From: Styela clava | Taxonomy: Eukaryota | DNA length: 64,000 nt | Direction: 5' to 3' | NCBI RefSeq assembly: GCF_964204865.1 | Contig: NC_135262.1 | Coordinates: 4,402,001-4,466,000, forward strand | Shown here: piece by piece, positions 54,001-57,000 of the stretch | How positions within the stretch are numbered: position 1 is the stretch's first letter | Layout: each line of letters opens with the position of its first letter | Made by a program: the position numbers

Positions 54001-57000
54001 TCCTCATTTTTGAATTAAATTCGTTAGTTTTTAGTTGTTTTTCGGAAATTTAAATAAAAATCATATAAGTCAATGATTACTTTGTCCTCCTATGAGTTTC
54101 AGTTTAAATACGGTAATCAAAAATTGGTGTAGAAATAGCTGTGATGGACTATAGGCTAAATTTTTTTATCGGTACTTTTAAAAAACAGATTGTTGAATGG
54201 TATGAATTAGAATGATAGTTTGAAACAAATACCCTATTTTACAGGCAAACACTCGCGAAACCACTCTTAAAAATAAGCACCGAAAATTTAAAAATGATAA
54301 AGTATATAGGAAGAATTTTACGCGGTCAAAAGTCGGGGATAGGTCTATTCAGTGAATCGTCCCGGGCCATATTTTTTTACTTAAGCCGTATTTTGTCGAC
54401 CACTGGGATACGCCAACTACCGTACCTTACTGCGGAGACGAGTCCAGAAATCCTTTCGCGTGTGATAATTGACCACGTGAATCAAGTCTGCGAATGCACA
54501 CAGCGTAGGCTACAGAATTGAGTGCACGATACGCAGAGCAATAACAGATTTCGCGAAATCGCCCCCCTATCGCCCCCTTCGACTTTTTCGCCCCCCTCTG
54601 TATCGTTTTCGCCCACCGGGGGGCGATATCGCCCACTTTGGGAATCACTGACCTAGATGATGTAAATATCATTTGTTAGCTTTTTATACTTTGCTTTCTT
54701 ATATTCTTCATTTAATATTTCTTATACTTAGCTAATTCATTGAATCAGACATATGCATCGATGACAATAAAATTTTGAGTCACCAACAAAATTTGTTATT
54801 GTGCATTCCCAGATAAGGTTTTTATAATTTTAAATAATTGTGTTAAGAAGTTGGAATAAAAATTAATCAGGAATTTCTTCAAATAAGTTATTACCGGTTC
54901 GATATTAAAAACATCACAAAAATATTCGATCTTGGACAGCCGTCCCTATTACCCAGTCAATTCAATTATATCATATTTTATATACATACAAGACATTACA
55001 TAAATGCCTCTTGTCTACCCACAATTAGTGGAACCTTAATTCTGAATTCTGCTTCAATTGAAATCAAAATTTTTATGAAATGATGTAAATAAAAATTCCT
55101 GACAATTATCAATATAATCCTAACCTGTTGAATTCCAGTAATATTTTTTAACCAATTGCTAAACTTCTCCAGGTTGCATCACTTGCATGGTTATATTTTT
55201 TGTGAATATAAGTTAGAGTAATAACTTGACGATGGCAAAGGTTTCGGATAATGAGTTTGATTTGGATATTGATGTAAATGAACACAATGCATTAATGATG
55301 GGTAAATTGCATAGTATGAAAAAAGATGGACAACATTCTGACCTCGTCATCAAAGTAGGAAGTGAGGAGTTCTTGGTTCACAAGAACATGATGTCAGCGG
55401 GTTCTGATTATTTTGATGCGATGTTGTCACATGATAACTTGGAGACCAACACAGGAATTGTTAAAATGCAAGATGTTGATGTGGAATCAGTAAAGGTTTG
55501 CATTGATTACATTTACACTGGAAAAGCTTCAATTACTTTGGAAAAAAGTGAACAACTACTCCATGTTGCAACTTTGATGCAGTTATCAGTACTTTGTGAT
55601 AAGATAGCCGAGTTTCTCAAAGCTAAGTTGGACATGAAAACACTTCCCTTTATCAAACAAACTGCTTCTATGTTTGAAATCCAAACAATAAAAACAGCAT
55701 GTGATGATTTTGCATTGTCTAATATGGGAGCAATTTCTCAGGAAGAATACTTCAATGAATTGGATGTAGAATTCATCTCCTTCATGGTTGGATCGAAAAA
55801 TTTATCTTATTCTGAGGATTCTAAACTTGCTGTTCTTCTGCAGTGGATCAAAGGTGATATTGACCAACGAAGAAAACTTCTGGTTGAAATGATAAATCTG
55901 ATAAACCTGAATAATGTTTCTTATCGATATGCAACATTCTTAGTGGAAAATGAAAGCCTGTGTGTTGAATTACCTGTAATCTTAAAATTATTGTTTCTCA
56001 AAATGGCTGAGAAGTCTGGTGTTAAAGGAGCATCTGCAGAAATTCCCACCAATGCACCTGAATTCAATGCATTTGCAGTTTTTGACAAGACTTCGAGAAA
56101 AATCAAAACATTCCGGCCAGAAAAAAAAGAATGGCAGGATCTAAAAAAACTGCATGATGGTATGGTAAATAGCTATTACACTGCAGTCATGGTGAAGGAT
56201 TTCATCTATGTTTTTATGGAGAATCGTTCAGTATATCGTATTAATATTTCTGGACCAGATTCAACTTGGAATAAAATAGCTGATTACCAATTTGAACATG
56301 GCCAGTTTTTGCGAGCAGAATTTTGTAATGAATTCATTTATCTTTTCGGCATGAAAACATTGGAGGGGTATGATATCAGCAAAAATGTGTGGGGCCTGGT
56401 AGAAACAGAAAAAAATACACTATTCAACTGTACATTAGCTGGATTCCAGCAATCAATTTACATACTAGGAGGTTCTAATAATGGTAGTTTATCATCAGTG
56501 AATCGATATTCACTGCCATCCACTTGGTCTTCATGCAAAGCCATGAATGTTCCTCGGGAGCTTCCTGCTGCTACAGTTAATGGGAATCGAATATTTGTGG
56601 CAGGCGGATTTAATAATATCTACGGGTCATTATCTAGTTCAGAGTTTTGTGATCTACAAACAGACTGTTGGACAAATTTAGCCTCAATGACAGTTCCTCG
56701 GTATTATTTTGGCCTTTGCACTGTTGGTAATGAATTATTTGCAATTGGAGGTGAAAAAGGCCGGTCAAAATCGGTTGAAAAATACAATTTTGAGTCAAGT
56801 CATTGGGAGAATCTTATAAATTTTCCAGAAAATATGAATATTGCTCCACCTGCCAGTCTGGCATATAAACTTCCACCATAGTCAGTGGCGCAGCCAGGGG
56901 GGGGGGGGGGGGGGGGGGGTTCGGGGTCGAACCCCCCCCCCCTTTTGAATTTTCCGAAAAGTGAAAAAGTTGCCGATAACACGCGCAATTGCCTTCTGCT

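What the first reader, a model, noticed from the sequence alone, without database searches (positions are those of the whole stretch)
54885..56881. K5 is a recombinant gene: K3-type upstream region and BTB joined to a K2-type BACK-Kelch
Seen: 54885-55225 matches the K3 upstream region (43921-44280). The N-terminus has K3-type SDNEF and KTLPFIKQ where K2 has SDKEF and KSLLIIKQ. From about 55745 onward it follows K2, including the hAT insertion at the stop codon. The six later K2/K5 amino-acid differences all lie in the Kelch region. Inference: crossovers in the conserved BTB/BACK region swap promoters and recognition domains, a way of generating new variants.
Basis: seen in the sequence. Interest (0 to 1): 0.7.

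Follow-up and report, generated by a model that had tools for sequence, protein, structure and literature searches.

The report
Mosaic BTB-Kelch gene in tandem array
One gene in a six-copy tandem family of BTB-Kelch ubiquitin-ligase adaptor genes really is a patchwork of two neighbouring copies, but this is an ordinary result of recombination between tandem paralogues, not a new kind of system.

Summary
K5 (55232-56881) is a mosaic. From 54886 to about 55665 (347 bp upstream plus codons 1-144, the BTB domain) it follows K3. From 55666 through the stop codon, a hAT-like insert and on to about 60242, it follows K2.

- Informative sites: 55 of 61 are K3-like left of 55663/55666 and 5 of 196 right of it; 0 of 20000 permutations reach this.
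- Trees conflict: (K3,K5) 99% for the 5' part, (K2,K5) 100% for the 3' part. Each part rejects the other's tree (AU p 1e-5 and 1e-58).

The interpretation needs correcting.

- The K3-like stretch is a 0.78 kb patch. Its left end is a non-homologous junction at 54885/54886 with spacer sequence of the kind found downstream of K1. This fits a non-reciprocal exchange or template switch plus a roughly 4 kb deletion inside a copied K1-K2 block, not a simple crossover.
- The patch differs from K3 by 2.6%, while the K2-like part differs from K2 by 0.72%. So K3 was not a recent donor, or K2 and K5 were made alike again later, or the donor lies outside the window.
- The protein barely changes. The main change is upstream and untested.
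- An assembly error could not be excluded because no reads were available.

The parts
52864..54650 (.). Non-autonomous hAT-like element, found only in the K4-K5 spacer. It has the 8-bp target duplication ACCTAGAT at 52856-52863 and 54651-54658.
   Evidence: Terminal inverted repeats CAGTGGTTCCCAAA / CAGTGATTCCCAAA. The K1 spacer has the empty site at about 33246. No other copy in the window. None of the 3 ORFs tested gave a transposase match.
54651..54885 (+). Spacer of the K1-downstream type, belonging to the K4 copy. It ends at the non-homologous junction.
   Evidence: 94% identical to 33246-33486 over the whole stretch; 92-100% in 150-bp tiles. Junction sequence shown.
54886..55231 (+). K3-type upstream region of K5 (347 bp). 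It holds a TATA-like motif near 54975-54985; that reading is inference only.
   Evidence: 94-99% identical to K3 44029-44280 and 69-79% to K2. Indels exclusive to K3 and K5. Upstream tree groups (K3,K5) at 98%. The stretch 54918-54941 is not like present-day K3.
55232..55665 (+). K3-type 5' coding part of K5: codons 1-144, the BTB domain and the first BACK residues.
   Evidence: 14 of 15 informative coding sites are K3-like. Pfam BTB at residues 27-132. Contains a short K6-like patch at 55444-55496.
55664..55767 (+). Interval that holds the homologous 3' breakpoint (codons 144-179, start of BACK).
   Evidence: Max chi-square places it at 55663/55666. The likelihood scan puts the best point at 55692. 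The first K2-only site is 55768. 4 of 14 K5-private substitutions lie at 55634-55688.
55666..56881 (+). K2-type BACK-Kelch part of K5, including the stop codon.
   Evidence: 13 differences from K2 in 1216 bp. 191 of 196 informative sites are K2-like. (K2,K5) grouped at 100%.
56883..58595 (.). Non-autonomous hAT-like element inserted at the stop codon. Target duplication ACCATAGT at 56875-56882 and 58596-58603.
   Evidence: The same element at the same site in K2 (38740-40446). None of the 4 ORFs tested matched Pfam. Contains a 169-bp tandem repeat.
58604..60242 (+). K2-type downstream spacer. Beyond about 60242, identity to K2's spacer falls to 91% and then 76-82%.
43923..44720 (+). The stretch of K3 that matches the K5 patch. 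It is the presumed donor or its closest surviving relative.
   Evidence: 703 matches, 19 mismatches and 2 gap events over K5 54942-55665.
37523..42112 (+). The stretch of K2 and its downstream region that matches K5 55666-60242.
   Evidence: 4529 matches, 33 mismatches and 4 gap events.

Best explanation
The window holds a tandem array of six uninterrupted BTB-BACK-Kelch ORFs, K1 to K6. By family, these are predicted substrate adaptors of Cul3 ubiquitin ligases.

A block holding K1, its spacer and K2 was copied to a position between K3 and K6, giving K4 and K5. K2 already carried a hAT-like element at its stop codon when this happened.

In the copy, about 4 kb is missing. This is the equivalent of 33487-37522: the spacer with a DSBA-like fragment, the K2-type upstream region and the first 144 codons. 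In its place lies a 0.78 kb patch of K3-type sequence (54886-55665).

The right end of the patch lies within sequence homologous among the paralogues, at the BTB/BACK boundary. The left end is a join without homology. The most likely mechanism is therefore a non-reciprocal event. One option is repair or replication that copied from K3 and rejoined by end-joining or template switching. The other is an ectopic gene conversion from K3 followed by a deletion that trimmed it.

Shown: the mosaic, both junctions, and the co-linearity of the blocks. Inferred: the order and number of events, the direction K3 to K5, and any effect on expression.

The result is a gene that encodes an almost K2-like protein behind a truncated, K3-type upstream region.
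For: **The mosaic**
- Sliding identity switches from K3 to K2.
- 55 of 61 informative sites are K3-like left of 55663/55666, against 5 of 196 to the right; 0 of 20000 permutations reach this.
- Trees give (K3,K5) 99% for the 5' part and (K2,K5) 100% for the 3' part.
- AU tests reject the other part's tree: p 1.07e-5 for the 5' part and 1.1e-58 for the 3' part.
- A single breakpoint lowers AICc from 10934.9 to 10667.2.
- Among 30 parent/child triplets, K5 with K2 and K3 as parents scores highest, chi-square 140.

**Block structure**
- K1 unit 27656-33253 aligns with K4 unit 47285-52863.
- K2 unit 36795-42850 aligns with K5 unit 54918-61011.

**A patch, not a crossover**
- 54651-54885 matches 33246-33486 at 94% overall and 92-100% in 150-bp tiles.
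- The junction shares about 1 bp between the two sources.

**K2 and K5 share descent**
- The hAT-like element is in the same site with the same target duplication in both.

**K5 is a separate locus, not K3 and K2 reads joined**
- It has 14 substitutions found in no other paralogue, spread over both parts.

**Direction**
- K3 to K5 needs one event. The reverse direction also needs a second change in K2, whose upstream region is unlike any other copy in the window.
Against: - The patch differs from K3 at 19 of 722 aligned bases (2.6%). The K2-like part differs from K2 at 33 of 4562 (0.72%); Fisher p 2.7e-5. If K5 began as a K2 copy and was converted later by today's K3, the patch should be the younger part. 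So either K2 and K5 were made alike again later, or the donor was a K3 relative outside the window, or K3 changed quickly.
- 54918-54941 does not look like present-day K3.
- Six informative sites in the patch disagree with K3: 54954, 55161, 55185, 55192, 55230 and 55386. Separately, 55444-55496 looks K6-like.
- In the 5' coding part alone, support is modest: (K3,K5) 66% and AU p 0.029.
- The partitions for the tree tests were chosen after seeing the data. The permutation and likelihood scans were not.
- No reads, no second genome and no transcripts could be consulted.
- The likelihood gain also includes rate differences between the two halves.
Confidence: 0.72

Rival explanations
1. One reading: a reciprocal unequal crossover between K3 and K2 within the BTB/BACK coding region created K5.
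For: The 3' junction lies in sequence that is 92-99% identical among the paralogues. Tandem arrays are classic substrates for unequal crossing over; this is established knowledge, and reviews were seen in the listing.
Against: The K3 flank does not come along. K3-likeness ends at 54885, and the sequence to the left is of the K1-downstream type. The gene order K1 K2 K3 K4 K5 K6, with K4 resembling K1 and K6 not resembling K3 (about 84-85% identity), does not match the product K1 K2 hybrid K3. No reciprocal hybrid is in the window.
Confidence: 0.1
2. The donor of the 5' patch was not K3 itself. It was a closer K3-like paralogue or allele outside the window, since the array reaches the window's right edge. 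A variant of this: several small conversions from different copies built the patch.
For: The patch is 2.6% diverged from K3, against 0.72% between K5 and K2. 54918-54941 is unlike K3. There is a K6-like micro-patch at 55444-55496. Four K5-private changes cluster at 55634-55688. K6 ends 2 bp before the window's end.
Against: Six of the K3/K5 differences are states private to K3, so they could have arisen in K3 after the transfer. No better donor exists in the window.
Confidence: 0.3
3. Assembly artefact: the K5 5' end or the 54885 junction is a mis-join or a polishing error among near-identical repeats.
For: The region holds 99-100% identical repeats several kb long, and homopolymer runs whose lengths differ between copies, G23 against G8. 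No reads were available.
Against: K5 is identical to neither parent: 19 differences from K3 in the patch and 13 from K2 in the 3' coding part. It has 14 private substitutions. The left junction is non-homologous, which is not what a repeat-driven mis-join gives. The window has no N runs. K2-type and K3-type upstream regions differ by 67 substitutions and 8 indel events in 54942-55665, too much for polishing to convert.
Confidence: 0.08
4. Reverse history: K5's K3-like 5' end is the old part, about as old as the duplication. The sharp boundary at about 55665 is then the left edge of a later 4.6 kb K2-K5 homogenising conversion (55666-60242). K1 and K4 were likewise made alike again over 2.2 kb.
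For: Divergence of the patch (2.6%) matches that of K1/K4 spacer upstream of the gene (54 of 1942, 2.8%). The K1/K4 gene block has 4 differences in 2200 bp and the K2/K5 block 33 in 4562. Both near-identical blocks have sharp edges.
Against: This model still requires an earlier K3-type replacement, so it changes the order of events and not the mosaic nature. The outer flanks of K5 are of the K1-downstream and K2-downstream type, not the K3 type.
Confidence: 0.3

Closest known systems
Chimeric duplicates and ectopic (interlocus) gene conversion in tandem gene families
   Same: A paralogue built from two donor copies, with one junction in conserved coding sequence, conflicting trees along the gene, and regulatory sequence exchanged together with coding sequence. 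Chimeric duplicates are reviewed as frequent in animals in PMC3449122 (passages read). For PMC3924832, on ectopic conversion in Drosophila, only the search listing was seen.
   Different: Here one edge of the patch is a non-homologous join tied to a roughly 4 kb deletion. The patch is also more diverged from its apparent donor than the rest of the gene is from its parent.
BTB-BACK-Kelch (BBK / KLHL) Cul3 substrate adaptors
   Same: Pfam finds BTB, BACK and Kelch repeats in all 5 K proteins scanned; K4, near-identical to K1, was not scanned. The best solved relatives are the Kelch domains of KEAP1, KLHL12, KLHL20 and KLHL17, plus full-length KLHL22. The BBK family and its lineage-specific expansions are described in PMC1257465 (passages read).
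   Different: These are uninterrupted ORFs in a tight tandem array, interleaved with DSBA-like fragments. No orthology to a named KLHL was established.
Expanded ubiquitin-ligase adaptor families with a conserved cullin-binding end and a fast-evolving substrate end (MATH-BTB and F-box families of nematodes and plants). The paper by Thomas, 2006, is recalled and was not read; the phrase was found only in other papers' texts.
   Same: The BTB/BACK half is conserved (dN/dS 0.12-0.35). The Kelch half is more divergent (dN 0.16-0.20, dN/dS 0.41-0.68).
   Different: No pairwise dN/dS above 1 was found here, so positive selection is not shown. No site-level test was possible with six sequences.
Non-autonomous hAT-superfamily elements
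   Same: 8-bp target-site duplications and short terminal inverted repeats that begin CAGTG.
   Different: No transposase coding remnant was detected. The superfamily assignment rests on target duplication length and terminal motif only.

Membership tests
BTB-BACK-Kelch (BBK/KLHL) proteins | N-terminal BTB/POZ domain | tested here: met
   PF00651, E 3.4e-21, residues 27-132 of K5. Similar hits in K1, K2, K3 and K6.
BTB-BACK-Kelch (BBK/KLHL) proteins | BACK domain after BTB | tested here: met
   PF07707, E 3e-9, residues 142-233, above the curated cut-off.
BTB-BACK-Kelch (BBK/KLHL) proteins | C-terminal Kelch repeats that form a beta-propeller | tested here: inconclusive
   Kelch_1 has 3 significant stretches, and other Kelch models hit as well. 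PDB Kelch domains match at E down to 1e-51. The number of blades was not verified because the AlphaFold model was poor, mean pLDDT 48.5.
BTB-BACK-Kelch (BBK/KLHL) proteins | Binds Cul3 and recruits substrates | not testable with these tools
   Inferred from family membership only.
Interlocus gene conversion / chimeric paralogue | Different parts of one gene have different closest paralogues, beyond chance | tested here: met
Interlocus gene conversion / chimeric paralogue | The transferred tract is bounded on both sides by the recipient's own sequence (a patch) | tested here: met
   Left of 54885 the sequence is K4/K1-type spacer. Right of about 55665 it is K2-type. The left bound is a non-homologous join, so pure conversion alone does not explain it.
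Reciprocal unequal crossover product | The donor's flank continues beyond the junction, and gene order fits a hybrid between neighbouring copies | tested here: not met
   The K3 flank is absent upstream of 54885. The gene order does not fit.
hAT superfamily transposable element | 8-bp target-site duplication | tested here: met
   ACCATAGT flanks 56883-58595. ACCTAGAT flanks 52864-54650. Empty sites are present in paralogous copies.
hAT superfamily transposable element | Short terminal inverted repeats with a YARNG-type end (this consensus is recalled, not from a call) | tested here: met
   The 16-nt termini beginning CAG (56883-56898 and 58580-58595), and the CAGTGGTTCCCAAA / CAGTGATTCCCAAA pair.
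hAT superfamily transposable element | hAT transposase with a dimerisation domain | tested here: not met
   None of the 7 ORFs scanned gave a transposase match. The only hit was a weak zinc-finger match, E 0.059. At best these are non-autonomous elements.

The most novel reading that the evidence does not exclude
The K4-K5 copy, the 4 kb deletion, the K3 patch and the cluster of private substitutions at the breakpoint are the trace of one replication-based, template-switching duplication: K1 block, then K3, then K2. If so, a single event in this adaptor array gave a K2-type substrate-recognition propeller a different, truncated K3-type control region. The lower synonymous divergence of the BTB/BACK half would then reflect a recurrent recombination hotspot that reshuffles control regions and Kelch domains across the family.
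Probability: 0.15. Interest if true: 0.5.

Novelty: new member of a known kind. Interest (0 to 1): 0.3.

Why it matters
This is a clean example, resolved at sequence level, of how a tandem family of ubiquitin-ligase adaptors is reshuffled. Both junctions are visible. A transposon insertion marks descent. The blocks carry different ages.

It is useful for annotating this array and as a caution: trees built from whole genes of this family will mislead. It does not reveal a new mechanism. Chimeric paralogues and ectopic conversion in tandem arrays are well documented (PMC3449122, passages read). The functional claim, a new expression pattern for a K2-like adaptor, would matter for this organism's biology only if K5 is expressed.

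Tried and rejected
- **Structure prediction.** An AlphaFold2 model of K5 was built from the six-paralogue alignment, to place the K2/K5 differences and the breakpoint on the fold. Mean pLDDT was 48.5 and pTM 0.40, so it was not used and no fold search was run.
- **First block alignment.** It was repeated with a faster setting.
- **Transposase search.** Pfam scans of 7 ORFs inside the two inserted elements found no transposase.
- **Positive selection after the exchange.** Past the breakpoint, K2 and K5 differ by 8 non-synonymous and 5 synonymous base changes. dN/dS is 0.65 in the Kelch part. The numbers are too small and give no sign of dN/dS above 1.
- **K5 as an original K3 copy.** The idea was that its 3' end was later overwritten by K2. 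It was rejected because K5's outer flanks are of the K1-downstream and K2-downstream type.
- **False haplotype duplication.** The idea was that (K1 K2 K3) and (K4 K5 K6) are two haplotypes placed in tandem by error. It was rejected because K3 and K6 are only about 84% identical.
- **Not searched.** Orthologues, other haplotypes and the organism's identity stayed unchecked. The bacterial, phage, plasmid and E. coli collections were not searched because they cannot bear on this locus.
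Full report
**What is in the window**

The window has no N runs and is 31-40% G+C. It carries six uninterrupted ORFs of 547-549 codons on the + strand:
- K1 30633-32279
- K2 37089-38738
- K3 44284-45930
- K4 50240-51886
- K5 55232-56881
- K6 62355-63998, which ends 2 bp before the window's edge

The five scanned (K1, K2, K3, K5, K6) have BTB, BACK and Kelch repeats by Pfam. In K5, BTB covers residues 27-132 and BACK 142-233. K4 was not scanned; it differs from K1 by 3 non-synonymous changes.

The best solved relatives are Kelch domains of KEAP1, KLHL12, KLHL20 and KLHL17, plus full-length KLHL22. 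By family these are BTB-BACK-Kelch proteins, predicted Cul3 substrate adaptors (family described in PMC1257465, passages read).

Other features are a Neuralized plus RING ORF at 14906-17200 and DSBA-like fragments in the spacers. These, with hAT-like elements, point to an animal genome. I could not identify the organism. I do not take the contig for human, though no search tested this. "Intronless" is read from the ORFs only; no transcript data were available.

**Checking the observation**

BLASTN of the K5 locus against the window gives two main alignments:
- 54885-56874 with K3 43923-45923, 87.6% overall
- 54918-60000 with K2 36795-41870, 96.5%

In a six-way alignment with 420 bp of upstream sequence:
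- Windows between 54953 and 55199 are 94-99% identical to K3 and 69-79% to K2.
- Windows from 55746 to 56342 are 100% identical to K2 and 74-94% to K3.

The site list and the upstream alignment show indels shared only by K3 and K5: a 4-bp insertion at 55000-55003, a 3-bp deletion at 55050, and a 9-bp insertion at 55174-55182.

K2 and K5 coding sequences have the same length and differ at 37 bases:
- 24 differences lie up to 55663 and 13 lie after it.
- After the breakpoint there are seven amino-acid differences: L153I, plus six in the Kelch region (391, 395, 473, 491, 494, 540).

**Is it more than chance?**

I took K2 and K3 as parents and K5 as child, with no breakpoint assumed.
- 257 sites are informative.
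- The maximum chi-square (199.5) falls between 55663 and 55666.
- 55 of 61 sites are K3-like to the left and 5 of 196 to the right.
- 0 of 20000 permutations reach this.
- With the coding sequence alone the counts are 14 of 15 and 5 of 196, again 0 of 20000.

Maximum-likelihood trees:
- 54942-55665 groups (K3,K5) at 99%.
- 55666-56881 groups (K2,K5) at 100%.
- The upstream part alone gives (K3,K5) 98%.
- The 434-bp 5' coding part alone gives only 66%.

AU tests:
- The 5' part rejects the 3' tree (delta lnL 39.5, p 1.07e-5).
- The 3' part rejects the 5' tree (delta lnL 202.5, p 1.1e-58).
- The 5' coding part alone gives p 0.029.
- These partitions were chosen after seeing the data.

A GARD-like likelihood scan does not depend on that choice.
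- The scan tried 42 breakpoints. AICc falls from 10934.9 with no breakpoint to 10670.8.
- A finer scan gives 10667.2 at 55692, with 55680-55800 within about 7 units. The trees on either side are the two above.
- Part of that gain may reflect rate differences between the two halves.

Of 30 triplets among K1, K2, K3, K5 and K6, the K5/K2/K3 triplet is the strongest.

**Where the edges are, and why this is a patch**

Painting the second half of the array in 150-bp tiles, with block alignments, gives:

| Stretch | Best match |
|---|---|
| 47.7-52.86 kb | K1 unit, 28.1-33.25 kb |
| 52864-54650 | insert with no other copy in the window |
| 54651-54885 | 33246-33486, K1's downstream spacer: 94% overall, 92-100% per tile |
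| 54886-55665 | K3-like |
| 55666-60242 | K2-like, 4529 matches, 33 mismatches and 4 gap events |

Beyond 60242, identity to K2's spacer drops to about 91% and then 76-82%.

So K4 plus K5 is a copy of the K1 plus K2 block. In it, the equivalent of about 33487-37522 is replaced by 0.78 kb of K3-type sequence. The missing part is the spacer with a DSBA-like fragment, K2's upstream region and 144 codons.

The left junction reads K1-spacer sequence directly joined to K3-type upstream sequence, with about one shared base. It is a join without homology. The right junction lies in coding sequence that is 92-99% alike among the copies.

A reciprocal unequal crossover would have brought K3's own flank with it, and would give the order K1, K2, hybrid, K3. 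Neither is seen, and no K2-5'/K3-3' gene exists in the window.

I therefore read the event as non-reciprocal. Either it was copying from K3 during repair or replication with an end-joined or template-switched left end, or it was a conversion later trimmed by a deletion. Which of these happened cannot be told from one sequence.

**The hAT-like elements**

The 1713-bp element at 56883-58595 has these features:
- It is flanked by the 8-bp duplication ACCATAGT, which contains the stop codon.
- It has 16-nt inverted termini.
- K2 has the same element in the same site (38740-40446).
- K1, K3 and K4 have empty sites.

This shared insertion is a rare change. It ties the 3' part of K5 to K2 by descent.

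A second element, 52864-54650, has the duplication ACCTAGAT. It is present only in the K4-K5 spacer, and K1's spacer has the empty site. It ends 235 bp from the non-homologous junction.

None of the 7 ORFs tested in the two elements matches a transposase. They are at most non-autonomous. The hAT label rests on the target duplication length and the terminal motif, whose consensus I recall rather than tested.

**Results that complicate the simple story**

1. *The patch is not a fresh copy of K3.* There are 19 mismatches in 722 aligned bases (2.6%) and 2 gap events. The K2-like part has 33 in 4562 (0.72%); Fisher p 2.7e-5.
   - K1 and K4 show the same kind of patchwork: 54 of 1942 (2.8%) upstream, 4 of 2200 in a block covering the gene, and 48 of 768 downstream.
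   - One reading is that the duplication and the K3 patch are of similar age, and that the K1/K4 and K2/K5 blocks were made alike again later.
   - The other reading is that the donor was a closer K3-like copy outside the window.
2. *54918-54941 resembles K1/K4-type sequence.* It has a deletion between direct repeats and does not resemble today's K3.
3. *Sites 55444, 55473, 55489 and 55496 carry K6-like states*. This suggests a further small exchange.
4. *Four of K5's 14 private substitutions lie within 55 bp at the breakpoint* (55634-55688).
   - Random placement reaches such a cluster anywhere in 1118 of 20000 trials.
   - In a fixed window at the breakpoint it does so in 18 of 20000 trials. 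That window was chosen after seeing the cluster.
   - This could be error-prone synthesis at the junction or a scrap from another donor. I leave it open.

**The wider family**

Among K2, K3 and K6, dS by region is:

| Region | dS | dN/dS |
|---|---|---|
| BTB | 0.12-0.19 | 0.13-0.29 |
| BACK | 0.15-0.26 | 0.12-0.30 |
| Linker plus Kelch | 0.41-0.43 | 0.41-0.42 |

Across all non-duplicate pairs, dN/dS is 0.12-0.35 in the BTB/BACK half and 0.41-0.68 in the Kelch half.

Third-position differences are 0-7 per 50 codons in codons 1-250 and 8-19 per 50 codons in codons 251-550 for these pairs.

Constraint on synonymous sites is not excluded. No pairwise value exceeds 1, so diversifying selection on the Kelch part is not shown.

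**What K5 is likely to do**

The K5 protein is 97% identical to K2 and 81% to K3.
- Of the nine K2/K5 differences in residues 1-144, four are K3-type (N7, T137, P139, F140).
- Two are shared with K1/K4/K6 (D81, V89).
- Three are private (K78, M135, T144).

The protein is therefore essentially a K2-type adaptor with six Kelch changes. One of these is Y473C, where the other five copies all have Y.

The larger change is upstream. K5 keeps only 347 bp of paralogue-type upstream sequence, of K3 type. Similarity among other copies runs about 1-1.6 kb upstream for K1-K2 and K1-K3, and about 460 bp for K1-K6.

The patch contains a TATA-like motif near 54975-54985 and a CAG/G acceptor-like site near 55170. 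Both are readings by eye, not tests. Whether K5 is transcribed, and from where, is unknown.

**Comparison with what is known, and verdict**

Chimeric duplicates and ectopic conversion in tandem families are common and well reviewed. I read passages of PMC3449122. For PMC3924832 I saw the search listing only.

The pattern of a conserved cullin-binding end and a variable substrate end is known from expanded adaptor families. The paper by Thomas (2006) is recalled and was not read. My search found only papers that mention it.

A search for BTB, Kelch, tandem, gene conversion and lineage-specific expansion (26 papers hold at least 4 of the 5 terms, 15 listed) showed nothing on a BTB-Kelch array like this one. 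That one search does not prove absence.

The finding is real and well resolved, but it is a new example of a known process. Its mechanism is better described as a conversion or template-switch patch with a deletion than as a crossover. Assembly error remains possible at a low level, because no reads could be examined.

**Left unchecked**
- Protein and contig collections that hold eukaryotes were closed. No orthologues, other haplotypes or further paralogues could be brought in.
- Supplementary files of papers were not consulted.

Noticed in passing
27877-28347, 42035-42505; related stretches 33763-34460, 47315-48038, 59970-60695: Every spacer of the array except the K4-K5 spacer holds a fragment related to a DSBA-like thioredoxin domain (PF01323, E 5.8e-25 for the 156-aa ORF, matching profile positions 60-190). 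The repeat unit is therefore a DSBA-like piece plus a BTB-Kelch gene. Only two copies keep a 156-codon ORF.
   Followed up: partly
14906-17200 (+): An uninterrupted 764-codon ORF with two Neuralized homology repeats and a C-terminal RING finger. This is another predicted E3 ligase, 13 kb upstream of the array.
   Followed up: partly
55634-55688: Four of the 14 K5-private substitutions cluster within 55 bp at the recombination breakpoint. A cluster this dense arises anywhere in 1118 of 20000 random placements, and in a fixed window at the breakpoint, chosen after the fact, in 18 of 20000. Possible causes are junction-associated mutation or a scrap from an unseen donor.
   Followed up: partly
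55444-55496: A short stretch inside the K3-like patch where K5 carries states of K6, or of K1/K4/K6. These give D81 and V89. This suggests a further small conversion.
   Followed up: partly
30246-32445 vs 49853-52052: K1 and K4 differ at only 4 of 2200 bases over the gene plus about 390 bp upstream. Their flanks differ by 2.8% upstream and 6.3% downstream. This looks like a separate homogenised block with sharp edges.
   Followed up: partly
56897-56943 and 38754-38795: The hAT-like element begins with a G-run and a C-run forming a hairpin. The run lengths differ between the K5 and K2 copies (G23/C11 against G8/C20). This is either real length instability or homopolymer error in the assembly.
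   Followed up: no
56649 (K5 codon 473) and 38557-38559 (K2 codon 491): K5 has Cys where the other five copies have Tyr, in the SSSEFYD motif. K2 has Cys at codon 491, where four of the other five copies have Tyr and K6 has Gly. Each member of the young pair thus carries a private change at a conserved aromatic position in the Kelch region.
   Followed up: no
63990-63998: K6 ends with the same ACCATAGTC sequence that is the target site of the hAT-like insertion in K2 and K5. The window ends 2 bp after the stop codon, so it cannot be seen whether K6 carries the element or whether the array continues.
   Followed up: no
968-1611: Two head-to-tail copies of a 322-bp unit at 98% identity.
   Followed up: no
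49135-49695 (+): A 186-codon ORF upstream of K4 with no Pfam match.
   Followed up: no
23771-23784: A one-mismatch match to the terminal repeat of the 52864-54650 element. It may be the end of another copy of that element family.
   Followed up: no
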